Source of the DNA: an uncultured virus (IMG/VR IMGVR_UViG_3300017754_003767)
Lineage: Duplodnaviria; Heunggongvirae; Uroviricota; Caudoviricetes
Reading direction: 5' to 3' (one strand)
IMG/VR virus record: IMGVR_UViG_3300017754_003767
DNA length: 21,650 nt
The position numbers and the translations under genes were made by a program. The notes below the pieces were generated by a model, which worked only from the letters and a program-made list of their open reading frames with translations, did no database searches and was not told the DNA's origin. This document shows positions 2,646-21,650 of this stretch, in pieces. The first letter of the stretch is position 1, and each line of letters begins with the position of its first letter.

Positions 2646-5600
2646 ATGGCATTAGAGACTTTCGAAGCAGGCTACGCGGGTTCGCGTCCACCCCGCACTG
2701 GTGCCCAGTGGTCGGGCATGTGGAAGCTTGGTCAAGTCACTGATCGCCTTATTGATGGCAAATGGCCCAGTGCCTGGTCTGTTACTGGTGGCAATCAACA
2801 AAAATCATTTGCAATTGTACAGGGAGATGGAACACCTACTGATGTTCAATTTAATGATGACGGAACCAGGTTTTATGTAATTGGAAATGCAAAAGATACA
2901 ATTTATCAATATACATGTACCACTGCATGGGACGTAAGTACTGCAGTATATGCAGGTAAATCGTTTTATGTTGGTACACAAGAAATAACTCCAAATGCAT
3001 TATTTTTTAAATCGGACGGCGCTAAATTTTACATTGTAGGCAGTACAAACGACACAGTTTATCAGTATTCATGTGCAACTGCATGGGATGTAAGCACTGC
3101 ATTTTATGACAGTAAATCATTTAGTGTTGCTGCGCAAGAAACAACTCCAAATGCATTATTTTTTAAATCGGATGGCACTAAATTTTATGTTGTAGGCCCT
3201 TCAACTGCTAGGGTACATCAATACTCCTGCGCCACTGCATGGGATGTAAGCACTGCATTTTATGATAGCAAGTTATTTAATGTTCTTGCACAAGAATCAA
3301 ATCCATTTGGATTATTTTTTAAATCAGACGGCACTGCGTTTTACATTGTAGGTCCTACAAACGACACAGTTTATCAATACACATGTGCTACGGCATGGGA
3401 TATTAGTACTGCATCTTATTCAAGTAAATCGCTTGTTGTCAATGGACAGGAAACGCAACCACAAGCATTATTTTTTAAATCAGACGGTACAGCTCTTTAT
3501 GTTGTTGGCCAAACAAACGATGCAGTATTTCAATACACCTGTGCTACTGCGTGGGATGTAAGCACAGGATCTTACAGTCAGAAAGCGTTTTATATTGGCG
3601 GTGGACAGGAAACAAACCCTAGCGAGGTACAATTTAATGATGATGGAACTAAATTTTATGTAATTGGTAATACAAATGACACAGTTTATCAATACACATG
3701 TGCCACTGCATGGGATGTAAGCACCGCGTCATTTGCTAATAAATCATTTTTCGTTGGGCTGCAAGAAACAGGCTCAACTGGATTATTTTTTAAACCAGAC
3801 GGCACTAAGTTTTACATTGTAGGTACTACTAACGACACCGTATATCAATACTCATGTGCTACTGCCTGGGACGTAAGCACTGCAGCATATGACAGTAAAT
3901 TATTTAGTGTTGGTGTGCAAGAAACAAGCCCGCAAGGTTTATTTTTTAAACCAGATGGCACTACATTTTATATTGTAGGAACTATAAATGATACGGTATA
4001 TCAATACTCATGTGCTACTGCATGGGATGTAAGTACGGCATCTTATGCAAGTAAATCATTTAGTGTTGCAGGCCAAGATACATTTCCACAAGGATTATTT
4101 TTTAAATCAGATGGTACTGCGTTTTATATTGTAGGCCAAGCAAACAGAACAGTTTATCAATACTCCTGCGCTACGGCATGGGATATTAGCACTGCATCTT
4201 ATGCAAGTAAAGCATTTAGTGTTGCCACACAGTTAACGTCAGAAACCCTTGCTGGTATCTGTTTTAAATCAGATGGAACCAAATTATACATTTTAGGCGC
4301 TAATTTGAGGATAGTTTATCAATACACATGCTCTACCGCCTGGGATTTAAACACTACTTCTACGTATGACAGCAAATCATTTAGTGTAAATGCTCAAGAT
4401 ACAGCTCCAGTAGACGTACAATTTAAAGATGATGGCACTAAATTTTATATTTTAGGTGCTGGTACTGATACAGTATTCCAATACTCCTGTGTTACGGCAT
4501 GGGATGTCAGTACTGCATCCTATGACAGCAAATCATTTAGTGTTAACGCACAAGAATCAAATCCACAAGGATTGTTTTTTAAATCAGATGGTACTACATT
4601 TTATATTGTAGGAGTTGCAAGTGATACTGTATATCAGTATTCTTGTGCAACTGCATGGGATGTTAGCACCGCATCTTATGCAAGCAAATCATTTAGTATT
4701 GCTGCGCAAGAATTAACTCCAAATGGAATATTTTTTAAATCGGATGGTTTAAAATTTTATGTTATCGGTTCAAATTCAGGCAGAGTGCAGCAATACTCAT
4801 GCGCTACTGCATGGGATGTAAGCACTGCATCATATGACACTAAATCGCTTAGTGTTACAGGCCAAGACACAACTCCAAATGGAATATTTTTTAAATCTGA
4901 TGGCACTAAATTTTATATTATAGGAGCAACAAATGATAATGTATATCAATACTCCTGTGCCACTGCATGGGATGTAGGCACTGCGTCATATGATACTAGA
5001 TTGTTTAGTGTTGCTTCGCAAGAAACAAATTCACAAGGTTTATTTTTTAAACCTGATGGTGCTAAATTTTATATTGTAGGTTCTACAGGTGATACTGTAT
5101 ATCAGTATTCAACTGTTGCCGCATGGGAAATCCAATCTCCTTTTTATGACAACAAATTTTACAGAACAGCTACAGAAGAAACAACGCCATATGGGTTAAC
5201 TTTTAAAACAGACGGTACCAAGTTTTACATTGTTGGTAATACATACGACACAATTTTTCAATACTCATGCTCTACCGCATGGGACATCAGTACTGGGTCT
5301 TATGACAACAAAACGTTTACTACTACAGCACAAGAAGGACAGCCCACTAGTTTATTTTTCAAACCAGACGGCACCAAGCTATATGTAATTGGCGGTTCAA
5401 ATGATACAGTATATCAATACTCATGCGCAACAGCGTGGGACGTAAGTACTGCGTCATACGATAGCAGATCATTTAGTGCTACTACACTGGAAAGTTCAGC
5501 GGAAGGATTGTTTTTTAAACCAGACGGCACTAAGTTTTATATTGTTGGTAGCATAAACGACACCGTATATCAATTTGCTTGTGGCATAGCTTGGGATATA

Positions 5601-5906
5601 AGTACCGCCTACTACGAAACAAAATCATTTAGTATTCGCGCACAAGAAGGTAATCCGTTTGGTTTATATTTTAAAGATGACGGAACCAAATTTTATATGT
5701 TAGGCAGTTCAAATGATTCAGTATACCAATACTCCTGTACTACTCCTTGGGACGTAAGCACCGCTTCCTATGACGGTGTATCGTATAGTGTTGCAACACA
5801 AGACACTACAAGCCATGAGATTCAATTTAAACCTGATGGCACTACATTTTATGTATTAGGTGATAACACCGACACAATCTATCAATACTCGGGTCTATTA
5901 CAATAA
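2646..5906 (+). CDS. Multi-beta-propeller repeat protein, putative receptor-binding/adhesin (20 x 52-aa repeats)
   Basis: Twenty repeats of SY.SKSFSV..QE..P.GLFFK.DGTKFYIVG..NDTVYQYSCATAWDVSTA. The F..DG..(L/F)Y pattern is typical of YVTN/lactonase-like blades. Lies in the tail module. Confidence 0.8.
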   Translation: MALETFEAGYAGSRPPRTGAQWSGMWKLGQVTDRLIDGKWPSAWSVTGGNQQKSFAIVQGDGTPTDVQFNDDGTRFYVIGNAKDTIYQYTCTTAWDVSTAVYAGKSFYVGTQEITPNALFFKSDGAKFYIVGSTNDTVYQYSCATAWDVSTAFYDSKSFSVAAQETTPNALFFKSDGTKFYVVGPSTARVHQYSCATAWDVSTAFYDSKLFNVLAQESNPFGLFFKSDGTAFYIVGPTNDTVYQYTCATAWDISTASYSSKSLVVNGQETQPQALFFKSDGTALYVVGQTNDAVFQYTCATAWDVSTGSYSQKAFYIGGGQETNPSEVQFNDDGTKFYVIGNTNDTVYQYTCATAWDVSTASFANKSFFVGLQETGSTGLFFKPDGTKFYIVGTTNDTVYQYSCATAWDVSTAAYDSKLFSVGVQETSPQGLFFKPDGTTFYIVGTINDTVYQYSCATAWDVSTASYASKSFSVAGQDTFPQGLFFKSDGTAFYIVGQANRTVYQYSCATAWDISTASYASKAFSVATQLTSETLAGICFKSDGTKLYILGANLRIVYQYTCSTAWDLNTTSTYDSKSFSVNAQDTAPVDVQFKDDGTKFYILGAGTDTVFQYSCVTAWDVSTASYDSKSFSVNAQESNPQGLFFKSDGTTFYIVGVASDTVYQYSCATAWDVSTASYASKSFSIAAQELTPNGIFFKSDGLKFYVIGSNSGRVQQYSCATAWDVSTASYDTKSLSVTGQDTTPNGIFFKSDGTKFYIIGATNDNVYQYSCATAWDVGTASYDTRLFSVASQETNSQGLFFKPDGAKFYIVGSTGDTVYQYSTVAAWEIQSPFYDNKFYRTATEETTPYGLTFKTDGTKFYIVGNTYDTIFQYSCSTAWDISTGSYDNKTFTTTAQEGQPTSLFFKPDGTKLYVIGGSNDTVYQYSCATAWDVSTASYDSRSFSATTLESSAEGLFFKPDGTKFYIVGSINDTVYQFACGIAWDISTAYYETKSFSIRAQEGNPFGLYFKDDGTKFYMLGSSNDSVYQYSCTTPWDVSTASYDGVSYSVATQDTTSHEIQFKPDGTTFYVLGDNTDTIYQYSGLLQ

Positions 5907-8410
5907 GTAAATAGAGCAGACTAAAAATGAAAGGAAATTACATCGGTAAAAAACCCTCTGGTTACAGCGCCATCTCTGCTAGTAAAACAGGGGCTTGGGA
6001 AATTTACGACCAAGGGCAAATGGTGCGTGATACCCAATGGACCGGACAACCGTGGGACGTAAATAATGGGTACTACCTAAATAAAAAATGGACAGTTGGG
6101 TTAAATGAAACAACTCCTGGCGATGTTCAATTTAATGATGATGGAACAAAACTTTACATTATTGGTTCTAACACTGATGCTATTTACCAATATACATGCT
6201 CTACCGCATGGGATTTAACCACAGCTTTTTACACGGGTAAATCATTTAGTGTTGCTACGCAAGAAAATAATCCACAAGGTTTATTTTTTAAATCAGATGG
6301 CACTAAATTTTATATTGTAGGCCAACAAAATAACACAGTTTATCAATACTCTTGTGGTACAGCATGGGACATAAGCACTGCTTTTTATGAAAGAAAAGCG
6401 TTTAGTATTACTAGCCAAGACGCGCTTCCACGGGGATTATTTTTTAAATCAGATGGCACTGCGTTGTATATTGTAGGGGGTACTAATAACAGAATTTTTC
6501 AATACTCCTGCGCTACTGCATGGGATGTAAGTACCACGTCTTACGATAATAAATCATTTCTTGTTTCTTCCCAAGATTCAGTTGGAACTACTTTATTTTT
6601 TAAACCTGACGGCACTAAATTTTATATTACAGGAACAACAAATGATAATGTCTATCAATACTCCTGCGCTACTGCATGGGATATTAGTACTGGGTCTTAC
6701 GATAATAAAATTTGCCGTCTTTCTGGTATAGAAGGAACGGCAAATGGATTATTTTTTAAATCAGATGGTACCAAATTGTATGTTATTGGTTCTACAGGTA
6801 ATACAGCAATTGAATTCACCTTGTCTACAGCCTGGGACGTAAGTACTAATAATGGGGCGGGCGGTGTGTTTTATGTAGGGGGACAAGAATTAACTCAACA
6901 AGGTATTACTTTTAAACCTGACGGCACTACATTTTATATTGTAGGAACTTCAAATAAAACGATTTATCAATATTCCTGCGCCACTGCATGGGATGTAAGC
7001 ACTGCATCATATGCAAGTAAATCATTCAGTGTAAATGCTCAAGAAACAAATCCAACAGACGTACAATTTAAAGATGATGGCACTAAATTTTATATTGTAG
7101 GCACTGCAAACGATACTGTATTTCAATACTCATGTGCTACAGCATGGGACGTAAGTACTGCGTCATATGACACTAAATCATTTAGTGTTGCAGGCCAAGA
7201 AACAAATACAAATGGATTATTTTTTAAATCAGACGGTACTACATTTTATATTGTAGGCCAAACAAATGCAATAGTTTATCAGTACACATGTGCTACGGCA
7301 TGGGATGTTAGTACTGCATCATATGCAAGTAAGTCGTTTAGTGTTATTGCACAAGACTCAAACCCACGAGGATTATTTTTTAAACCAGATGGTACTAAGT
7401 TTTATGTTGTTGGTGGTACTAATGCAAGAGCATATCAATACTCTTGTGCTACAGCATGGGATGTAAGTACTGCATCTTATGACACTAAATCTTTTAGTGT
7501 TGTAGAACAAGATAATACCATGAATGGACTTTTTTTTAAACCGGACGGAACCAGGTTATATGCGGTAGGTCAAGTAAGTGATAACATTAGTCAATACGAC
7601 CTACCCCTGGCATGGGACGTGGTTAATGCTGGGTTTGGTATTAAAGCTTTTGCGGTTAATTTACAAGATACAGGTCCAAATGATTTAACTTTTGGTTCGG
7701 ATGGTACTAAACTTTATGTTATTGGTAATACGGGTGATGCAGTATATCAATACACATGTTCTACAGCCTGGGACATAAACACTGCAGTTTTTAATTACAA
7801 CTCAAGTGGTGCTTATGGACGCGCTCGTGTTAGTACGCAAGAAACAAATCCAACTGGATTATTTTTTAAGCCAGATGGTACTAAGTTTTATATTGTAGGC
7901 ACTACAAACGATACTGTATTTCAATACTCATGTGCTACAGCATGGGACGTAAGTACTGCGTCATATGACACTAAATCATTTAGTGTTGCGGCACAAGAAA
8001 CAACGCCAAATGGATTATTTTTTAAACCAGATGGTACAACATTTTATATAGTGGGAAATTCAACTGATACAGTCTATCAATATTCATGTGCTACTGCGTG
8101 GGATATAAGTACTGCATCCTATGCTACTAAATCATTTGGTGTAAACGCACAAGATTCAAATCCAGTTGGATTATTTTTCAAACCTGATGGCACTAAATTT
8201 TATATTGTAGGTATTACAAATGATACCGTCTTTCAATATGCCTGTGCTACAGCATGGGATGTTAGTACTGCATCTTACGAAAATAAATCGTTTAGTATTC
8301 AACTACAAGAAGGAGTCCCAGCTGGAATAGCAATTGATGATTTAGGTAGCTTTTTGTACATTTGCGGTATTACATCCCCACAAGGTGTGTACCAATATTC
8401 TTTAGTTTAA
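2790..8410 (+). repeat. Coding tandem repeats with a ~156-bp unit, 35 copies over two genes
   Basis: gcatgggatgtaagcactgc, ttattttttaaa(t/c)cagatgg and tatcaatactc recur at about 156-bp spacing. Confidence 0.9.
5927..8410 (+). CDS. Multi-beta-propeller repeat protein, paralog (15 x 52-aa repeats)
   Basis: Fifteen copies of the same repeat, plus a short N-terminal leader similar to that of the preceding gene. Confidence 0.8.
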   Translation: MKGNYIGKKPSGYSAISASKTGAWEIYDQGQMVRDTQWTGQPWDVNNGYYLNKKWTVGLNETTPGDVQFNDDGTKLYIIGSNTDAIYQYTCSTAWDLTTAFYTGKSFSVATQENNPQGLFFKSDGTKFYIVGQQNNTVYQYSCGTAWDISTAFYERKAFSITSQDALPRGLFFKSDGTALYIVGGTNNRIFQYSCATAWDVSTTSYDNKSFLVSSQDSVGTTLFFKPDGTKFYITGTTNDNVYQYSCATAWDISTGSYDNKICRLSGIEGTANGLFFKSDGTKLYVIGSTGNTAIEFTLSTAWDVSTNNGAGGVFYVGGQELTQQGITFKPDGTTFYIVGTSNKTIYQYSCATAWDVSTASYASKSFSVNAQETNPTDVQFKDDGTKFYIVGTANDTVFQYSCATAWDVSTASYDTKSFSVAGQETNTNGLFFKSDGTTFYIVGQTNAIVYQYTCATAWDVSTASYASKSFSVIAQDSNPRGLFFKPDGTKFYVVGGTNARAYQYSCATAWDVSTASYDTKSFSVVEQDNTMNGLFFKPDGTRLYAVGQVSDNISQYDLPLAWDVVNAGFGIKAFAVNLQDTGPNDLTFGSDGTKLYVIGNTGDAVYQYTCSTAWDINTAVFNYNSSGAYGRARVSTQETNPTGLFFKPDGTKFYIVGTTNDTVFQYSCATAWDVSTASYDTKSFSVAAQETTPNGLFFKPDGTTFYIVGNSTDTVYQYSCATAWDISTASYATKSFGVNAQDSNPVGLFFKPDGTKFYIVGITNDTVFQYACATAWDVSTASYENKSFSIQLQEGVPAGIAIDDLGSFLYICGITSPQGVYQYSLV

Positions 8411-9565: not shown

Positions 9566-9723
9566 AACGTAATAAAGATTTAAGGATTCGCGTCAATATC
9601 TGCTGGGAAGTTGGCGACGAAAAAAAATGCGTAACCCTCAGTAAAGAAGAGGCTTACGCAACTAGAAAATGGGTGGAAGACAACGATGGTGTTGTGTTCT
9701 GGAGCCAGGTACTACCTGATTAA
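9562..9723 (+). CDS. Hypothetical protein (53 aa, not in ORF track)
   Basis: GTG start overlaps the lysin stop (GTGA). Reads MKRNKDLRIRVNICWEVGDEKKCVTLSKEEAYATRKWVEDNDGVVFWSQVLPD. Confidence 0.6.
   Translation: MKRNKDLRIRVNICWEVGDEKKCVTLSKEEAYATRKWVEDNDGVVFWSQVLPD
9620..9660 (-). terminator. Possible intrinsic terminator for the minus-strand block
   Basis: Minus strand TGCGTAAGCCTC-N9-GAGGGTTACGCA (one mismatch) followed by T8, 60 nt after the endonuclease stop. Confidence 0.4.
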
Positions 9724-10421
9724 TCAGCGTTTTTTAAATACTGAATAGCGTTTTCTAAATTAGAAATATCATCAAAGAACAAGCCCAACCCTGTATTGCA
9801 ATGTGAACACAATAAGCCCCTTACTTTATTTGTTTCGTGATCGTGGTCAACACACAAGATACCAGGAGAGGCCCCAACGCCAGGAGCCCGAGCTGATGGC
9901 ACGCCACAAATTTTACACTTATGGTTTTGTTTATCTAACAAATTAAAATAGTCATCAAGGGTGAGACCATATTTTTTGAGATTTGCATTTCGAATTTTAT
10001 CTTTGTATACGGTTTTATTTTTTAAACTACAGCACTGTTTACACCAAGCTCCTACCTTTCCAATTTTTCTTCCATTAGGTTCAGGTGGAAAATTTTCAAA
10101 GGGCTGAATTAAATTGCAGCTGCCACATACTTTGACATTGTCCTGGGCCAGTGCATATTGAGTTTTATACCTCACTGCATTAATCTGTTCTTTTGCGCAT
10201 TTTTGACAACCCTTGCCGGCAAGGTGGTTTGTTGCCAATTGTTGAAATTCACCGTGCTTTAAACAAACGATTGTAACAGCGCTTTGCTGTCGACTAAAAG
10301 TTGTGGGCACTAAAGAATAATCGTACAGATCACCGTGAATACCCCTAGCCCTATCGATAAAATACTCGGCTCGCTGTTGCCGACTTGCACCCCTAGGGAG
10401 TTGTTGCTTATACTTGGTCAT
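9720..10421 (-). CDS. Endonuclease VII-family (HNH) homing-type endonuclease with N-terminal zinc-binding domains
   Basis: C-terminal KYGLTLDDY..LL..Q...CKICG...LCVDHDHETNKVRGLLCSHCNTGLG. N-terminal HGDLYDYS...IVCLKHGEF.Q....HL.GKGC..C domain. ATG 10421 preferred; 10469 is an alternative start. Confidence 0.85.
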   Translation of the reverse strand: MTKYKQQLPRGASRQQRAEYFIDRARGIHGDLYDYSLVPTTFSRQQSAVTIVCLKHGEFQQLATNHLAGKGCQKCAKEQINAVRYKTQYALAQDNVKVCGSCNLIQPFENFPPEPNGRKIGKVGAWCKQCCSLKNKTVYKDKIRNANLKKYGLTLDDYFNLLDKQNHKCKICGVPSARAPGVGASPGILCVDHDHETNKVRGLLCSHCNTGLGLFFDDISNLENAIQYLKNAD

Positions 10422-10447
10422 GGCCACACGTATCCTGTGGTTATTTG

Positions 10448-10477
10448 GCAGTGATGTTTGCGGCATCACTGCTTTTT
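10448..10477 (+). terminator. Hairpin plus T-tract (plus-strand terminator, or regulatory hairpin of the endonuclease gene)
   Basis: GCAGTGATG-N7-CATCACTGC, a perfect 9-bp stem followed by TTTTT. Confidence 0.55.
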
Positions 10478-13471: not shown

Positions 13472-14767
13472 TCACTTGCCAAGGCGCTTTTTCTTACGCT
13501 TGCTACGTGGCTCAGGTGCCTTCTGGGGAGCGGGCTCCCTAATGTCATGGGCAGTGCCATAGGAGCCATCCAGAACCTCCTGGAACAGCCCTGAGAACTG
13601 AGGTGCGATGTTGTCCCAGTCGTAGTAGGAGGAGGTGGCACGCTCGTAGCAGAGGCGTGCAGTCTCATCAAGCTTCTCACGGTTCTCGTATAGATCCGTC
13701 AAGATTTCAGCGAGGTGATCAGAGGAAGGGCATGGCATTTCCCGTGCGTAGTTCGTATCCACATCAACGTGGTCGCAGCGGATCAGGCGTCCAGCACCCT
13801 CAAAGATCTCCTTACATGACGTATGGTCGGGCACCACCTGAGCAACGCGGCAACCAGCGTGTTCATGGTTGACCAGGCCGTGGCCCTCACCCTTGCAAGT
13901 GTTGACACCCACGTCGGCTGAGTTGTAGATGGCATTAAGGACATCCACCTCCACATTGGGGGGCCCATCCGTTTGTGCTGTAAGGATGATGCGTCCATTG
14001 GGATCTAGCCCTTCTCGCCTCATGGCCCTGGCAAACATGGGCATCAAGTCCCAACCCTGATCTTTGAGTCCCATATGTAGATACAGTTGCGTATCCGGTT
14101 TGTCCTTAGCAAACTTGGCAAAACCCTCAACCGTAATATCGATTCGTTTACGGAACTGGTTGCGGTTACCGTTGAACACTACAAAGATGTCATCCGATAA
14201 ACCAAGCCGTTTACGAGCCTCACTCTTATCCATGGGATAGAACTGACCTTTGGTGACGCCGTGAGGAATCACAGCGACAGGCTTCTGGTAGCCAGCGGCC
14301 ACAATTTCTTTTGCGCCAAATTCCGTATAACAAATGGACGCATCCCATTCGTTCATGGTCTCAAGGATGCACCCAGTCCAGCCATAGCTGTCCATGGGGT
14401 AGTACCCAATAAACTTGAAGGCGCCAGTCTTATGGATGTCTTGGATCTGACGATACAACTCATTCAGAATCCACAGATCATTCATGATGAAGACAAGATC
14501 TGGCTTCTCTTTCTCCACAATCTCCCTGATGCGTTGCTCACCAAAGGGTGCAGTCTGGTATCGATTAGATGAGGGATAAATCAAATACTTATCACAGAGC
14601 GGATGCGGGTCACCCCACCAGTTATTACCGAGCACTACAACTTCATAATCATCGCAAAGACGCTCAAGCACATTTTCCGTGACACGAGCAAACCCGGTCT
14701 TGGCAATGATGTCACCCGACCAGAGCAGTTTAGGACGTTTTGTTTTTTTCAAGATACTCAATTGCAT
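13472..14767 (-). CDS. GT-B fold glycosyltransferase (GT4-like)
   Basis: KLLWSGD....TGFARV, IPHGV....FYP, NRNQFRKRID and YNSADVGVNTCKGEGHGLVNHEHAGC (E-x7-E). Start is ATG 14767 or TTG 14752, both inside the upstream endonuclease gene. Confidence 0.9.
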   Translation of the reverse strand: MQLSILKKTKRPKLLWSGDIIAKTGFARVTENVLERLCDDYEVVVLGNNWWGDPHPLCDKYLIYPSSNRYQTAPFGEQRIREIVEKEKPDLVFIMNDLWILNELYRQIQDIHKTGAFKFIGYYPMDSYGWTGCILETMNEWDASICYTEFGAKEIVAAGYQKPVAVIPHGVTKGQFYPMDKSEARKRLGLSDDIFVVFNGNRNQFRKRIDITVEGFAKFAKDKPDTQLYLHMGLKDQGWDLMPMFARAMRREGLDPNGRIILTAQTDGPPNVEVDVLNAIYNSADVGVNTCKGEGHGLVNHEHAGCRVAQVVPDHTSCKEIFEGAGRLIRCDHVDVDTNYAREMPCPSSDHLAEILTDLYENREKLDETARLCYERATSSYYDWDNIAPQFSGLFQEVLDGSYGTAHDIREPAPQKAPEPRSKRKKKRLGK

Positions 14768-15185
14768 TTCTAAAATAATCTACATCATCTTTGAAATAAC
14801 CAAGGCCAAGGTTGCATGTTGAACAAAGGACTCCTCTTACTTTGTTAGTTTCATGGCAATGATCTACATGCCAATCCTTTGCTCCTGGACTTTTTGTTTT
14901 GCAAATTGCGCAACAATGTCCTTGTTTGGCTAGCAGGTTATTTCTTTCTTCAAGTGTTACCCCGTAAAGGCGCATTAGATTACCGGACTTTCTTTTGTCT
15001 GCGTTGTTTTCTTTCCACTCTTTTGCTTTATTTTTAGTACATTCTTTACAGATATAAGAAAGATACCCCACCCTCCTGCTGGGACCATTTTTTTTGGACG
15101 CATAGAACTCAGCGGCTTTTTTAATAACCTTGCAACAGTTGCATTGCTTTTGCGTCAAGGGCTCGGTTCGCTTGGGCCACGCCAT
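14730..15185 (-). CDS. Endonuclease VII-family homing-type endonuclease (151 aa)
   Basis: CNCC...ICKEC zinc finger and LYGVTLEE...LL..Q...CAICK......WHVDHCHETNKVRGVLCSTCNLGLG. More AT-rich than its flanks. Confidence 0.9.
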   Translation of the reverse strand: MAWPKRTEPLTQKQCNCCKVIKKAAEFYASKKNGPSRRVGYLSYICKECTKNKAKEWKENNADKRKSGNLMRLYGVTLEERNNLLAKQGHCCAICKTKSPGAKDWHVDHCHETNKVRGVLCSTCNLGLGYFKDDVDYFRNAIEYLEKNKTS

Positions 15186-15205
15186 TTACTTAATGTCAAA
15201 AAACC

Positions 15206-15214
15206 ATTGTAACA
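15206..15214 (-). promoter_or_regulatory. Extended -10 promoter element for the endonuclease gene
   Basis: TGTTACAAT, 20 nt upstream of ATG 15185. Confidence 0.55.
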
Positions 15215-15239
15215 GTTTACTGGTTTTGTTGACTTTTAA

Positions 15240-19563: not shown

Positions 19564-19668
19564 ATGGAAAACCAAAGGCGGACAATTATGTGGCTGATTG
19601 CAGCTATTGTTCTTGTCGTAGGGCTTGACGCCTACCTGTTTATTGCCGAAGTTTTTAAAAACCAATGA
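19564..19668 (+). CDS. Small single-helix membrane protein (34 aa, not in ORF track)
   Basis: MENQRRTIMWLIAAIVLVVGLDAYLFIAEVFKNQ. ATGA overlap with hli. Confidence 0.55.
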   Translation: MENQRRTIMWLIAAIVLVVGLDAYLFIAEVFKNQ

Positions 19669-19904
19669 ACAAATCAGTGCTCTGGATCCAAGGCTGGTAC
19701 AACTGCCTGTCCTGGATCATTCAAGAAATTATCAGCCGCTACTGCCCAGACCTAAACATTGCAACCTTGCCAACCCACCCTGAGGATTACCTCTGGTACG
19801 CCGAGCGTTTTAATGGTCGCGCCGCCATGCTTGCCGTGATCTTCATCTTGCAATGGGAGTTTGTAACCCACAAATCCATCTGGGAGTTTGCAGGTGTCTA
19901 TTAA
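19665..19904 (+). CDS. hli: High-light-inducible (HLIP/CAB-like) protein
   Basis: AERFNGRAAML followed by a hydrophobic helix and E..T, matching the ExxNGRxAM chlorophyll-binding motif. Confidence 0.8.
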   Translation: MNKSVLWIQGWYNCLSWIIQEIISRYCPDLNIATLPTHPEDYLWYAERFNGRAAMLAVIFILQWEFVTHKSIWEFAGVY

Positions 19905-20055
19905 CCTCACCAGGTTTTATTACGACATCGATGACGAGCAGCGCACCGGCCTCTTGAATCAATGCGTGGTTGACGACGTTGAGACGATTGAAGCCGATGC
20001 GTTTGAATTGGAGTTACAATCCAAGGATATTGAATACATCCGAGTCGACCTGTGA
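19894..20055 (+). CDS. Small acidic protein (53 aa, not in ORF track)
   Basis: GTG start, MSINLTRFYYDIDDEQRTGLLNQCVVDDVETIEADAFELELQSKDIEYIRVDL. The stop overlaps the next start (GTGA). Confidence 0.6.
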   Translation: MSINLTRFYYDIDDEQRTGLLNQCVVDDVETIEADAFELELQSKDIEYIRVDL

Positions 20056-20648
20056 CCCAAGCAACGGACTGGACCACGTATTTTTCTACGGTCAAACCTA
20101 GGCTTGGCGCTCGGGCTGATGGCTTCCAAAAAATTTTCCAACACCTAAATGGGGTCAAAAATCCCATTATTATTGAGACAGGTACGTACCGAGAGGAAGA
20201 CAACTACACGGGCGATGGCTGCTCTACCCTCCTTTTTGACGCGTACGTTAGTGCCCATAGCGGCCAGTTGATTTCCGTTGACATTGACCCAAATGCTTGC
20301 GAGCTAGCCAGTTCAAGTACCAGCAGTAACACTGAGGTTATTGAGTCAGACTCGATTGAGTTTCTTGGCACCCTGGAGGGGCGCTGTGATCTGTTGTACT
20401 TGGACTCGTACAACATCACAAATTGGAATAAGGATTGGGCACCAGCAGCTCATCACCTCAAGGAGTTGTTTGCTGCTAAGAACATCATCAATCCTGGCAC
20501 CTTAATCATTGTTGATGACAACATCACAACACCACAAGGCAAACGTCTTGGCAAAGGACGTTTGATTTATGAACTAATGGAATCTCTTGGTATCCCTGCG
20601 TTTCTTGACAGCTATCAAGTGGGTTGGATTTGGGAAGAACTACAGTAA
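20052..20648 (+). CDS. Class I SAM-dependent methyltransferase (Methyltransf_24-like)
   Basis: IIETGT, SVDID, DSIEFL, DLLYLDS and GTLIIVDD motifs. Confidence 0.8.
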   Translation: MTQATDWTTYFSTVKPRLGARADGFQKIFQHLNGVKNPIIIETGTYREEDNYTGDGCSTLLFDAYVSAHSGQLISVDIDPNACELASSSTSSNTEVIESDSIEFLGTLEGRCDLLYLDSYNITNWNKDWAPAAHHLKELFAAKNIINPGTLIIVDDNITTPQGKRLGKGRLIYELMESLGIPAFLDSYQVGWIWEELQ

Positions 20649-20777
20649 ACCCTACTGTTTTTTCCGGTATATCCCATAGGTATATCCACAAAAATGCGTC
20701 ACACTTAAGATAGTGCTACTGTTGAGGATAGAATGCCACAAGTAATTCTTTTACCACGAAACCCCAAAGGTTCTGAA

Positions 20778-20984
20778 ATGACTCTTTCCAATCAGGTTAA
20801 ACAAGCCCTTGATAATGCCACGGCAAATCTGCGCGAAGCCCTTGCGTTTGCCGCACGTACCGAGCATCCTGTAACGATCAGCACACTAACCGACATCCTG
20901 GTACGCCTAGAGTCCTTGGAGTCCATCGAGGAAATTATGCACAAGTTTGGTAAGCAGCACGACATCCCCACCAACTTTGGCTAA
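20778..20984 (+). CDS. Hypothetical helical protein (68 aa), resembling a conserved cyanophage family
   Basis: MTLSNQVKQALDNATANLREALAFAARTEHP. ATG 20778 preferred over 20733. Confidence 0.7.
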   Translation: MTLSNQVKQALDNATANLREALAFAARTEHPVTISTLTDILVRLESLESIEEIMHKFGKQHDIPTNFG

Positions 20985-21147
20985 GTATAAACTTCCAACG
21001 GAGGCTGAACGCCTCCAAAATTATTTTTGGGAACTCGAAGCAAAGATCCCTAACCCTGGTAAGGACTGGGCACGGTCTGCCAAAGAATGTAAGTGGCTTA
21101 AAATATTAAAAGAAAGAGAACTAAAGTCGAGTGGCTCAAGACGATAG
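20977..21147 (+). CDS. Hypothetical protein (~56 aa)
   Basis: Probable TTG start overlapping the upstream stop; reads MAKYKLPTEAERLQNYFWELE... Confidence 0.5.
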   Translation: MAKYKLPTEAERLQNYFWELEAKIPNPGKDWARSAKECKWLKILKERELKSSGSRR

Positions 21148-21229
21148 CAAGTATTCCAAACCGGAATTACGTGAGCGCATCAAAGATCGTGTGATGGCTG
21201 GCTCTAAGGGTGGCAAGCCAGGCCAGTGA
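21131..21229 (+). pseudogene. N-terminal fragment (32 aa) of a conserved protein (DUF5872-like), interrupted
   Basis: MAQDDSKYSKPELRERIKDRVMAGSKGGKPGQ*. From memory, this family continues ...GGKPGQWSARKAQ; here TGA replaces the Trp codon. Confidence 0.65.
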
Positions 21230-21234
21230 TTTTG

Positions 21235-21243
21235 TGCTATAGT
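21235..21243 (+). promoter_or_regulatory. Extended -10 promoter element for the downstream endonuclease gene
   Basis: TGCTATAGT, 21 nt upstream of ATG 21265. Confidence 0.55.
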
Positions 21244-21264
21244 AAGAAAAGCACAAACCAACCA

Positions 21265-21650
21265 ATGCAAAAACTTTGCCGGGAATGCGGAACTAGAAAG
21301 CCGTATGAAAATTTTGCAAACAAAGGGTACAACTCAGCCGGCAATATAAAAAGAGACAGCGTATGCAAGGATTGCAGATCTTTGATCAACCGTCGATTTA
21401 GATTATTGTATGGAGCAGACGGTCAAAAACAATGCTCTAAATGTGCTCATTATTTAGATTGGGATTGCTTTAGAAGAAGAAAGCAAGACGGTAAATTATA
21501 TCTTCATTCTTCATGCAAAACTTGCAATAAGTTAAGTTGGGATAAATGGGTAGATAACAATAAAGAACATTATCAAAAAGTTAAAAAACAAGGGCAAGAT
21601 TTATTACATCACAATCACAAAAAATATGAGCGCAGAGGAATAACAAAAGA
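21265..21650 (+). CDS. Zinc-finger protein, probable Endonuclease VII-family homing endonuclease (3' partial)
   Basis: MQKLCRECG...VCKDC...KQCSKC...SSCKTC...KKYERRGITK. Two C4 fingers, then GIT where the other two EndoVII genes have YGLT/YGVT. AT-rich; the catalytic domain would lie outside the window. Confidence 0.7.
   Translation, partial: MQKLCRECGTRKPYENFANKGYNSAGNIKRDSVCKDCRSLINRRFRLLYGADGQKQCSKCAHYLDWDCFRRRKQDGKLYLHSSCKTCNKLSWDKWVDNNKEHYQKVKKQGQDLLHHNHKKYERRGITK

What the first reader, a model, noticed from the sequence alone, without database searches (positions are those of the whole stretch)
21131..21650. Second case: conserved gene broken at GQ|W, with remnant codons turned into the endonuclease promoter
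Seen: the ORF ends GGKPGQ-TGA, and in frame after the stop come TTT TGT GCT ATA GTA AGA AAA GCA CAA (FCAIV-RKAQ). The family motif recalled is GGKPGQWSARKAQ, so TGT GCT...AGA AAA GCA CAA looks like decayed S-A-R-K-A-Q. The inserted ATAGTA creates the extended -10 TGCTATAGT, 21 nt before a zinc-finger endonuclease ATG. This repeats the architecture at 14709-15230 and suggests a recurrent insertion or regulation strategy for these EndoVII genes. Whether the host gene is rescued (splicing, split protein, or restart downstream) cannot be seen in this window.
Basis: partly seen in the sequence, partly recalled or inferred. Interest (0 to 1): 0.8.

Follow-up and report, generated by a model that had tools for sequence, protein, structure and literature searches.

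The report
Endonuclease cassette with likely ribosome hop
A small conserved cyanophage gene is cut by a mobile nuclease cassette that, in relatives, carries a replacement gene start and a 20-30 base untranslatable gap, which ribosomes most likely hop over as in the phage T4 gene 60 bypass.

Summary
Window 21131-21229 encodes 32 codons ending GGKPGQ-TGA. An ORF with two CxxC pairs starts at 21265 and runs off the window.

Relatives show what the window cannot:
- Uninterrupted alleles read ...GGKPGQWSARKAQ... (71 sites). L287 is an empty site whose 5' part matches the window's remnant.
- The interrupting DNA is a roughly 765-nt mobile cassette. Window 21227-21650 is 424/424 identical to L002, while the flanks are 81-94% identical.
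- The cassette holds a hairpin, a 202-aa Endonuclease_7-domain homing endonuclease, a replacement 34-codon 5' segment with its own ATG, and a gap.
- The gap runs: take-off TCG, UAG, a UAGCC-GNRA-GGCUA hairpin, an AU-rich tail, then landing TCG fused to the resident SARKAQ... part.
- In 51 IMG/VR loci plus L035 the gaps are 20, 21, 24, 25, 26 or 30 nt. Both flanks stay open and show purifying selection.
- The arrangement survives endonuclease decay and is the only full-length copy in 5 of 5 complete genomes.

Best reading (0.65): a phage T4 gene 60/MobA-like translational bypass cassette in a new gene, with a different endonuclease family. No bench evidence exists.

The scan noted endonuclease-linked micro-gaps on other DNA before (e1-5879515, e1-5956807), but not this family.

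The parts
21131..21229 (+). 5' remnant of the resident small gene (phrog_17747 / DUF5872-like): 32 codons ending GGKPGQ, then TGA where uninterrupted alleles have the Trp codon TGG
   Evidence: The empty-site allele L287 is identical over a 51-nt exact pattern and aligns to the window up to 21228. Uninterrupted relatives are shown.
21227..21650 (+). Left part of the mobile cassette; the window ends inside it. In L002 the whole cassette runs about 765 nt, from the stop that replaces Trp to the landing TCG.
   Evidence: 424/424 nt identical to L002 while the 1.6 kb of flank is 81-94% identical. The last mismatch is at 21223.
21231..21257 (+). Inverted repeat TTTGTGCT / AGCACAAA (8 bp, 11-nt loop) 7 nt upstream of the endonuclease ATG.
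   Evidence: Fold. Conserved across cassettes, with a T-A to C-G compensatory change in L042 and L048. Unrelated-sequence hairpins occupy the same place in L044 (-27 kcal/mol) and L046. Function not shown.
21235..21243 (+).
   Evidence: Present. Not called by the promoter scan. It is TATTGT in most cassettes and absent in L044 and L046.
21265..21650 (+). N-terminal 128 codons of the homing endonuclease, with two CxxC...CxxC zinc-ribbon-like units. The ORF runs off the window.
   Evidence: 100% aa identity to L002:7210-7593. The full 202-aa protein has Endonuclease_7 PF02945 at residues 122-196, E 7e-23. PHROG endonuclease VII families match.

Best explanation
The 32-codon ORF is the leftover 5' end of a small, widely conserved phage gene. 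A mobile homing-endonuclease cassette has invaded that gene precisely at its most conserved motif (GGKPGQ|WSARKAQ).

From left to right the cassette carries:
1. A stop codon in place of Trp.
2. A hairpin.
3. An Endonuclease_7-type (His-Me finger) endonuclease gene.
4. Overlapping that gene's stop, a new ribosome-binding site and ATG with a diverged replacement copy of the first 34 codons (ending ...GGKPGEWS).
5. A 20-30 nt untranslatable gap that ends at a second TCG, fused to the resident ARKAQ... remainder.

Shown:
- The insertion and its boundaries.
- Its horizontal spread.
- The endonuclease domain.
- The replacement segment and the gap in relatives.
- Purifying selection on both coding flanks.

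Inferred:
- The window continues like L002 beyond 21650.
- The gene is expressed from the new ATG. At take-off codon UCG, with UAG and a UAGCC-GNRA-GGCUA hairpin in the A site, peptidyl-tRNA-Ser detaches, the ribosome slides over the gap, and the tRNA re-pairs at the landing UCG. This restores ...GEWSARKAQ... as one protein.
- The gap separates the two halves of the endonuclease's target, so cassette-bearing DNA is immune to its own nuclease, as reported for T4 MobA/gene 60.
For: Insertion and mobility:
- Empty site versus filled site is shown.
- There is an identity break exactly at the junction: 424/424 inside versus 81-94% outside.
- 21 pairs of loci with 5' segments no more than 2% divergent sit on 3' parts up to 30% divergent.

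Architecture:
- 39 of 39 endonuclease relatives (at least 51% identity) with downstream DNA have TGGTCGTAG exactly 91 nt after the endonuclease match. This search was blind to the gap.

Gap (51 IMG/VR loci, plus L035):
- The landing codon was not fixed by any search pattern. It is TCG in 49 of 51 and TCT in 2 of 51, and TCG in L035.
- By haplotype it is TCG in 40 of 42 and TCT in 2, while neighbouring Ala/Arg/Lys codons vary synonymously.
- In uninterrupted genes that Ser codon is TCG in only 4 of 71.
- Gap lengths (51 analysed loci: 50 of the 51 pattern loci plus L035; L101 is cut at its contig start) are 20 (2), 21 (14), 24 (21), 25 (7), 26 (6) and 30 (1), covering all three phases.
- The frame that would connect the flanks is closed by stops in 20 of 21 distinct gaps.
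- The loop, left free in the search pattern, is GNRA in 51 of 51, with 5 variants.
- There are 0 TC dinucleotides in the 21 distinct gaps against 46 CT.
- Tails are 73-100% A+T.

Coding:
- The 5' segment has pN/pS 0.26 and the 3' part 0.215. Neither has a stop in any of 51 loci.
- The post-landing ORF is open for 48-63 codons in 51 of 51.
- The 5' segment matches phrog_17747 positions 16-44 and the 3' part positions 44-63. Both serines map to the same profile position.

Persistence:
- The endonuclease is reduced to a stub or absent in about 12 of the 51 pattern loci, through several different deletions, while the gapped gene stays intact.
- In 5 of 5 complete genomes the gapped copy is the only full-length copy.
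- L227 shows what real decay looks like.

Comparison with T4 gene 60:
- T4 reads GGA-UAGCC-UUCG-GGCUA, the same 5-bp stem starting at the UAG.
- GNRA loops and a 20-nt gap also occur among MobA cassettes (Manning & Atkins preprint, section 4).

RNA:
- One RNA-library contig (696 nt) spans the gap without a deletion. This is weak evidence.
Against: - No protein or ribosome data exist. Bypass is inferred from sequence alone.
- The hop lies outside the window. It is inferred for this genome from L002, whose cassette is identical over the 424 nt that overlap.
- Take-off TCG, UAG and the stem were fixed in the DNA patterns, so their invariance is only partly independent. The independent support is the 39 of 39 from the protein-based search.
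- No alternative take-off/landing codon pair was found, so there is no true covariation of the two codons. All cases may descend from one cassette.
- The SD-like (A/G)AGG lies 9-19 nt from the landing codon, not 5-7 nt as in T4.
- Folding energies of 70-nt segments are not better than shuffles (z -0.35 and +0.79). Only the small 5-bp hairpin is conserved, and it is lost in L035.
- No nascent-peptide signal could be tested.
- Much of the 3'-part diversity predates insertion, so its low pN/pS is only partly post-insertion evidence.
- It is unknown whether cyanobacterial ribosomes bypass.
Confidence: 0.65

Rival explanations
1. The gene was simply killed by the endonuclease insertion. The second 5' segment, the gap and the 3' part are a non-functional wreck that has not yet decayed.
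For: The gene's function is unknown and the gene is small. Gaps contain 2-4 in-frame stops. One locus, L227, is clearly decayed. Many insertions look recent.
Against: There are no stops or frameshifts in either flank in any of 51 loci, with pN/pS 0.26 and 0.215 and pS 0.57-0.81. The cassette-borne 5' segment has itself diverged under constraint. The gapped gene outlives the endonuclease in about 12 of the 51 pattern loci. It is the only full-length copy in 5 of 5 complete genomes. Landing TCG is kept in 40 of 42 haplotypes against 4 of 71 in intact genes.
Confidence: 0.1
2. Two pieces are made: the 34-aa peptide ends at UAG, and the C-terminal 48-63 residues are made separately by re-initiation near the landing site. 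The pieces then work together.
For: An SD-like AAGG/GAGG/GGAGG lies 9-19 nt upstream of the landing codon. Some gaps end in ATT ATT just before TCG. Split genes are known for other endonuclease insertions, for example MobE/nrdA as described in the Manning & Atkins preprint, section 12.
Against: There is no conserved ATG/GTG/TTG in frame at or near the landing codon. In the 25- and some 26-nt gaps the in-frame codon just before TCG is TGA. This model does not explain why the landing Ser codon must match the take-off codon, nor why both serines map to one profile position.
Confidence: 0.1
3. The gap, or the whole cassette, is removed from the RNA by an intron or other processing, and the mRNA is then translated normally.
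For: Endonucleases inside genes are usually carried by group I introns. The gap holds a GNRA hairpin, a common intron element.
Against: An Rfam E-value scan of L002 and L009 finds no group I or II intron. A whole-cassette intron cannot regenerate the Trp codon: the base before the landing TCG is T or A. It would also leave the internal 5' segment without a reason for purifying selection. Loci L073, L088 and L104 have no remnant exon at all yet keep the gap. No bacterial mechanism is known to me for a 20-30 nt intron in mRNA. An RNA-library contig retains the gap and no joints were seen (weak).
Confidence: 0.07
4. The flanks are joined by stop-codon readthrough or by a single programmed frameshift.
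For: In the 20-nt gap (2 of 51 loci) a single -1 shift before UAG gives an open connecting frame.
Against: In 20 of 21 distinct gaps (49 of 51 loci) the connecting frame has one to four stops. Gap lengths fall in all three phases. Either route would also insert 7-10 residues into the invariant WSARKAQ motif.
Confidence: 0.03

Closest known systems
Phage T4 gene 60 coding gap with the MobA homing-endonuclease element. (Sources: Manning & Atkins, bioRxiv 10.1101/2022.08.31.505936, of which I read sections 3, 4 and 12. Bonocora et al. 2011 is known to me only as that preprint's reference 19 and by recall. T4 sequence.)
   Same: - An endonuclease gene and a coding gap form one mobile unit inserted in a conserved gene.
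- The element brings a diverged homologous stretch of the target in front of the gap (T4's HomR).
- The new ORF's ATG overlaps the end of the endonuclease gene.
- Take-off and landing codons match.
- UAG follows the take-off codon directly.
- The hairpin has the same 5-bp stem UAGCC/GGCUA capped by a stable tetraloop.
[quoted passage not shown] - The gap persists after endonuclease decay.
   Different: - The target is a small gene of about 94 codons and unknown function, not topoisomerase II.
- The hosts are S-EIV1-like freshwater cyanophages, not T4-like myoviruses.
- The endonuclease has an Endonuclease_7 domain with zinc ribbons. It shows no similarity to the T4 mobA region, whose stub hits PF01844 HNH.
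- The take-off codon is Ser UCG, not Gly or Asp.
- The gap is 20-30 nt, not about 50.
- The loop is always GNRA.
- The SD-like motif lies inside the hairpin, 9-19 nt from landing.
- The gene is not split into two working subunits with C- and N-terminal extensions. Its whole 5' end is re-supplied and the old 5' end is left as a 32-codon remnant.
Free-standing or intron-less homing endonucleases that split or re-start host genes, for example MobE in nrdA of phage Aeh1 (as described in section 12 of the Manning & Atkins preprint)
   Same: The endonuclease sits inside a coding region without an intron or intein. The cassette supplies new termini so that the host gene still works.
   Different: Here the two parts are not separate subunits. 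No start codon exists for the downstream part, and a matched-codon gap links it to the cassette-borne segment.
Group I intron-encoded homing endonucleases of phages
   Same: Precise insertion at a conserved coding site. Presence/absence polymorphism. Flanking exon sequences serve as homology arms.
   Different: No intron core was detected. The boundaries lack the exon-terminal U and intron-terminal G. The interior contains a selected protein-coding copy of the 5' exon.
Mitochondrial 'byp' elements of Magnusiomyces capitatus (27-55 nt; known to me from the Manning & Atkins preprint introduction)
   Same: Short gaps of similar size that must be bypassed for a functional product, and that behave as mobile inserts.
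   Different: The byps are many copies across many genes, without an endonuclease, in a eukaryotic organelle. Here there is one site in one gene, linked to an endonuclease.

Membership tests
Gene 60-type programmed translational bypass (coding gap) | Matched take-off and landing codons flanking a non-coding gap | tested here: met
   Take-off is TCG. Landing is TCG in 49 of 51 loci and TCT in 2 of 51, TCG in L035, and TCG in 40 of 42 haplotypes. The landing codon was not fixed by any search pattern. Intact genes use TCG there in 4 of 71.
Gene 60-type programmed translational bypass (coding gap) | [quoted passage not shown] | tested here: met
   UAG in all 52. It was fixed by the DNA patterns. 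Independent support: 39 of 39 loci found by the endonuclease protein search.
Gene 60-type programmed translational bypass (coding gap) | Take-off stem-loop with a stable tetraloop starting at the A-site codon | tested here: met
   UAGCC-GNRA-GGCUA in 51 of 52. The loop was free in the pattern and is GNRA in 51 of 51, with 5 variants. Lost in L035. The stem was fixed by the pattern, so stem covariation was not testable.
Gene 60-type programmed translational bypass (coding gap) | Coding flanks collinear with uninterrupted homologues and under purifying selection; no other route across the gap | tested here: met
   phrog_17747 positions 16-44 and 44-63. pN/pS 0.26 and 0.215 with no stops. Connecting frame closed in 20 of 21 gaps.
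Gene 60-type programmed translational bypass (coding gap) | Mini Shine-Dalgarno 5-7 nt upstream of the landing codon | tested here: not met
   SD-like AAGG/GAGG/GGAGG is present in 20 of 21 gaps but lies 9-19 nt from landing.
Gene 60-type programmed translational bypass (coding gap) | Nascent-peptide signal and a demonstrated bypassed protein product | not testable with these tools
   Needs reporter assays and mass spectrometry. The only fixed peptide difference seen is Q to E before Trp: 52 of 52 gapped versus 0 of 71 intact.
MobA mobile element (sensu Manning & Atkins) | Inserted in the topoisomerase II large-subunit gene, splitting it into two ORFs with C- and N-terminal extensions | tested here: not met
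   The target is a phrog_17747/DUF5872-like gene. The 5' end is replaced rather than the gene being split.
MobA mobile element (sensu Manning & Atkins) | MobA-type HNH endonuclease (or a replacement) adjacent to the bypass cassette | tested here: not met
   The endonuclease has PF02945 Endonuclease_7. tblastn against the T4 gene 39-60 region gives nothing better than E 0.09. The T4 mobA stub hits PF01844. T4 mobA is a pseudogene, so this test is weak.
Homing endonuclease gene (mobile, site-specific) | Nuclease domain; presence/absence at one fixed site; sharp identity break at the insert boundaries | tested here: met
   Cleavage activity and target were not tested.
Group I intron | Conserved ribozyme core; exon-terminal U and intron-terminal G | tested here: not met
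   No Rfam match at E up to 1 in L002 and L009. The base before the landing codon is T or A.
Pfam DUF5872 (host gene) | Score at or above the gathering threshold | tested here: not met
   24.8 bits against a 27.5-bit cut-off for the intact 94-aa protein of L011. phrog_17747 matches at E 4e-21.

The most novel reading that the evidence does not exclude
This is a second, independent natural lineage of efficient programmed translational bypassing. It is a minimal 20-30 nt hop at Ser UCG codons, carried by an Endonuclease_7-type homing cassette in freshwater cyanophages. It works as a 'translational intron' that lets a selfish nuclease sit inside a gene's most conserved motif. Its UAG-CC-tetraloop-GG-CUA take-off hairpin is the same as in T4 gene 60. 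That points either to a portable hop module exchanged between unrelated endonuclease cassettes, or to convergence on the one RNA design that makes bacterial ribosomes take off.
Probability: 0.6. Interest if true: 0.9.

Novelty: new variant of a known kind. Interest (0 to 1): 0.85.

Why it matters
Programmed long-range bypassing in phages is known from one system, T4 gene 60 and its MobA relatives, all in topoisomerase genes of T4-like myoviruses. The 2022 preprint that catalogued them says the cassette "remains unique" and that the elements are "exclusively" in that gene.

A second family would differ in target gene, endonuclease family, take-off codon (Ser UCG), gap length (20-30 nt, varying naturally) and host ribosome (cyanobacterial). 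It would give an independent natural experiment on which signals are essential. Candidates are the shared UAGCC/GGCUA hairpin, the matched codons and the AU-rich, decoy-free gap.

It also matters for annotation. Gene callers will report such genes as two fragments or as pseudogenes. In addition, it shows a third way, besides introns and inteins, for homing endonucleases to invade coding sequence.

My literature searches (open-access library only) found no report of this case.

Tried and rejected
- The window's own assembly is not held. The nearest record, G001, has no match to 20650-21650.
- Megablast of 19600-21650 against GenBank phages gave no match.
- An exact search for the window's junction in IMG/VR gave no match, because L002 differs at two flank bases.
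- I could not read the window's own DNA beyond 21650. The single metagenome scan returned an empty-site relative, L287, and not the window's contig.
- Group I/II intron: no Rfam hit.
- Alternative take-off codons, or Q instead of E before Trp: one search found only the same 51 loci plus 3 unrelated chance hits. One search added L035, the decayed L227 and 2 chance hits.
- The hairpin-plus-tail module in other genes: in 8 contigs it is read in frame as ordinary coding sequence of a gene whose ...ILELK... motif looks PD-(D/E)XK-like by eye only (no domain search run). L323 has a matched CTG pair but only 6 codons downstream. I treat all of these as chance.
- TGGTCGTAG behind the distant endonucleases L054-L056 is in-frame coding sequence.
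- RNA evidence: only Logan contigs of 4 RNA-library runs with small shares were available. One contig bridges the gap, no joints were seen, parts are uncovered, and DNA carry-over cannot be excluded.
- No tRNA genes occur in the window.
- I ran no structure prediction or complex prediction; none was needed for the question.
Full report
**Observation**

Window 21131-21229 reads VAQDDSKYSKPELRERIKDRVMAGSKGGKPGQ followed by TGA. In frame after the stop come FCAIVRKAQ. An ATG at 21265 opens a 128-codon ORF with two CxxC...CxxC units that runs off the window.

The window is a piece of a cyanophage-like genome. It encodes an endolysin, a prim-pol primase, S-adenosylmethionine decarboxylase, a weak hli-like ORF and three Endonuclease_7 ORFs. 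Its primase is closest to Synechococcus phage S-EIV1, at 58.5% amino-acid identity. The 32-aa peptide matches phrog_17747 positions 17-42 of 63, so it is a truncated member of a real family.

**What the relatives show**

The window's own assembly is not held. I therefore fetched loci around relatives of the neighbouring methyltransferase.

- Eight of the ten that hold the small gene carry an uninterrupted 92-95-codon form reading ...GGKPGQWSARKAQLVAQEY...GGGY....
- Across 91 loci there are 71 distinct uninterrupted PGQWSAR sites.
- Two loci, L002 and L009, are interrupted like the window.

In L002 the peptide and the 128 endonuclease residues are 100% identical to the window. At the DNA level, window 21227-21650 is 424/424 identical to L002, whereas the preceding 1.6 kb is 81-94% identical. 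The last mismatch is at 21223.

A metagenome contig, L287, has a 5' part matching the window's remnant (51-nt exact pattern). It continues ...CCAGGCCAG TGG TCA GCA CGT.... It aligns to the window up to 21228 and to L002 again from L002:7937.

So there is an empty site and a filled site. The insert is about 765 nt, has sharp boundaries, and has moved recently between diverged genomes.

**Anatomy of the insert (L002 coordinates)**

- A stop replaces the Trp codon at 7172-7174.
- An 8-bp inverted repeat lies just upstream of the endonuclease ATG (window 21231-21257).
- The endonuclease occupies 7210-7818. It is 202 aa with Pfam Endonuclease_7 at residues 122-196, E 7e-23.
- Overlapping its stop (...GGAAGTTATGGCTGA) is a new ATG at 7811. 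This opens 34 codons that re-encode the gene's N-terminus in diverged form, ending ...GGKPGEWS (62.5% identical to the remnant).
- Then comes TCG (7910-7912), then the 24-nt gap TAGCCGTAAGGCTAACTAATTATT (7913-7936), then TCG (7937-7939).
- This is followed directly by GCA CGT AAA GCT CAA..., the resident ARKAQ... remainder, which stays open to the normal stop at 8120-8122.

In L009 the same layout has a 20-nt gap, so the two flanks are in different frames.

**How general it is**

A protein search with the endonuclease, blind to the gap, gave 47 loci. Of the 40 relatives at 51% identity or more, 39 have downstream DNA. All 39 have TGGTCGTAG exactly 91 nt after the endonuclease match. The seven distant endonucleases have none: L054-L056 carry a chance in-frame match.

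A DNA pattern with a free loop found 51 IMG/VR loci. L035 has the same layout with a decayed hairpin. Findings across these loci:

- The loop is GNRA in 51 of 51 (GTAA, GTGA, GGGA, GCAA, GAAA).
- For the 51 loci analysed (50 of the 51 pattern loci plus L035; L101 is cut at its contig start), gap lengths are 20 (2), 21 (14), 24 (21), 25 (7), 26 (6) and 30 (1).
- The landing codon, which no pattern fixed, is TCG in 49 of 51 and TCT in 2. By haplotype it is TCG in 40 of 42 and TCT in 2, while the next Ala, Arg and Lys codons vary freely.
- In uninterrupted genes this Ser codon is TCG in only 4 of 71.
- The gap tails are 73-100% A+T and contain no TC dinucleotide, so no decoy Ser codon (0 TC against 46 CT in 21 distinct gaps).
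- The frame that would connect the flanks is closed by stops in 20 of 21 distinct gaps, which is 49 of 51 loci.

**Evidence that both flanks are translated**

- Among 42 distinct sequences the cassette-borne 5' segment has pS 0.57 and pN/pS 0.26. The 3' part has pS 0.81 and pN/pS 0.215. Neither has a stop in any of 51 loci.
- The post-landing ORF is open for 48-63 codons in 51 of 51.
- The 5' segment matches phrog_17747 positions 16-44 and the 3' part positions 44-63. The take-off and landing serines occupy one and the same profile position.
- The endonuclease is full length in 37 of the 51 pattern loci. It is cut by contig ends in 2, reduced to a C-terminal stub by several different internal deletions in about 9, and absent together with the remnant in 3 (L073, L088, L104). 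In all of these the ATG, 5' segment, gap and 3' part stay intact.
- In five CheckV-complete genomes the gapped copy is the only full-length copy, beside the remnant.
- L227 shows what decay looks like: indels in the 5' segment, a broken hairpin and a lost landing codon.
- Divergence of the 5' segment and the 3' part is correlated (Mantel r 0.675, 0 of 2000 permutations). However, 21 pairs with 5' segments no more than 2% divergent have 3' parts up to 30% divergent. This indicates both long vertical co-inheritance and horizontal homing.

**Mechanism**

One mechanism joins the flanks in all variants: translational bypassing. Peptidyl-tRNA-Ser takes off at UCG with UAG and the hairpin in the A site, and re-pairs at the landing UCG.

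This is the design of T4 gene 60, whose take-off reads GGA-UAGCC-UUCG-GGCUA. The 5-bp stem starting at the UAG is identical.

The Manning & Atkins preprint (sections 3, 4 and 12 read) describes the MobA element as follows:

- An endonuclease plus a diverged homologous region plus the bypass cassette, with the insert ending at the landing codon.
- GNRA loops in some clades and a 20-nt gap in one clade.
- Persistence of the gap after endonuclease loss.
- Protection from self-cleavage by the gap (its reference 19, which I did not read).

It also states that the elements are exclusively in the topoisomerase gene of myoviruses.

The present case differs in several ways:

- Target gene.
- Phage lineage.
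- Endonuclease family. It is Endonuclease_7. There is no similarity to the T4 mobA region, and the T4 stub hits PF01844.
- Take-off codon, gap length and SD position (9-19 nt from landing).
- Overall architecture. The whole 5' end is re-supplied and the old one is left as a remnant, instead of the gene being split into two subunits.

**Rivals**

- A whole-cassette intron fails. There is no Rfam core. The boundaries are wrong and cannot regenerate the Trp codon. The interior carries a selected coding segment. Three loci lack the upstream exon altogether.
- Readthrough or a single frameshift works for only 2 of 51 loci.
- Re-initiation lacks any conserved start codon. In the 25-nt and some 26-nt gaps a TGA directly precedes the landing codon.
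- A dead gene is contradicted by the selection data above.
- An RNA-library contig of 696 nt spans the gap without a deletion, and no joints were seen. This is only a weak hint against RNA-level removal.

**Limits**

- There are no bench data.
- The hop lies outside the window and is inferred for this genome from L002.
- Take-off TCG, UAG and the stem were fixed in most DNA patterns.
- No second take-off/landing codon pair exists to show covariation.
- Fold energies of 70-nt segments are no better than shuffles.
- The literature searches cover an open-access library only.

The FCAIVRKAQ codons belong to the cassette and are not decayed resident codons. They form the hairpin. That hairpin shows a compensatory T-A to C-G change in L042 and L048, and hairpins of unrelated sequence occupy the same place in L044 and L046.

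The -10-like TGCTATAGT is present, but the promoter scan does not call it and it is not conserved in all cassettes. The stretch may still be an ancient vestige of the target carried by the cassette; I could not decide this.

The other EndoVII gene at 14730-15185 is a separate insertion, absent from L002, L011 and L001. It replaces the start of the glycosyltransferase gene with a new ATG inside its own 3' end. That is a shared trick, but it involves no remnant and no gap.

**Earlier notes of this scan**

Two earlier notes describe endonuclease-linked micro-gaps of 4-9 nt on other DNA (e1-5879515, e1-5956807). I did not test them. A sequence look-up found nothing like this locus.

**Verdict**

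The finding is best read as a new variant of the endonuclease-plus-ribosome-hop cassette. Confidence is 0.65 for bypass and about 0.95 for the mobile cassette itself. Interest is 0.85.

Noticed in passing
window 14730-15185 (-), with 14745-15237 as the inserted block: A second Endonuclease_7 ORF (151 aa) is an insertion absent from L002, L011 and L001. It sits between the SAM decarboxylase stop and the glycosyltransferase start. The glycosyltransferase now starts at an ATG inside the endonuclease's 3' end (MQLSILKKTKR... instead of MNKK... in L002).
   Followed up: partly
window 9720-10469 (-): A third Endonuclease_7-domain ORF (249 aa, E 6e-20) with an N-terminal extension hitting HNH/endonuclease PHROGs. 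I did not check whether it is also an insertion.
   Followed up: no
L002:8820-8856 (+), about 700 nt beyond the gapped gene: Rfam abiF RNA motif, 52.2 bits (gathering score 37), E 3e-7.
   Followed up: no
L227 (about 100 nt up- and downstream of position 1201): A decayed copy of the gapped gene: indels in the 5' segment, GGCCA instead of GGCTA in the hairpin, and a lost landing codon. It is a useful negative example of what relaxed selection does to this locus.
   Followed up: partly
L291, L292, L308, L315, L320, L321, L322, L327 (position about 401 in each): The 19-nt hairpin-plus-tail string occurs in frame (…VVAERLTKAGAKDEGD…) inside a different phage gene that carries a motif which by eye (no domain search run) looks PD-(D/E)XK-like (...ILELK...). 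There is no break in that ORF, so this is most likely chance.
   Followed up: partly
L044:868-918 and L046:2453-2503: Upstream of the endonuclease ATG these diverged cassettes have hairpins of unrelated sequence (a 15-bp stem at -27 kcal/mol in L044) where the window has TTTGTGCT/AGCACAAA. This suggests a conserved structural role, perhaps control of endonuclease expression.
   Followed up: partly
window 2646-5906 and 5927-8410 (+): Two very large adjacent ORFs (1086 and 827 aa) give many overlapping Pfam hits with high whole-protein scores but mostly no single significant stretch (SGL, LPD24, Phage_TTP_11 and others). They look like tail-fibre proteins rich in repeats.
   Followed up: no
L083, L085, L099 (upstream of the 5' segment ATG): Three different internal deletions fuse the remnant or the endonuclease N-terminus directly to the last roughly 20-35 codons of the endonuclease. 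Each keeps the ribosome-binding site of the gapped gene. These are independent snapshots of endonuclease loss.
   Followed up: partly
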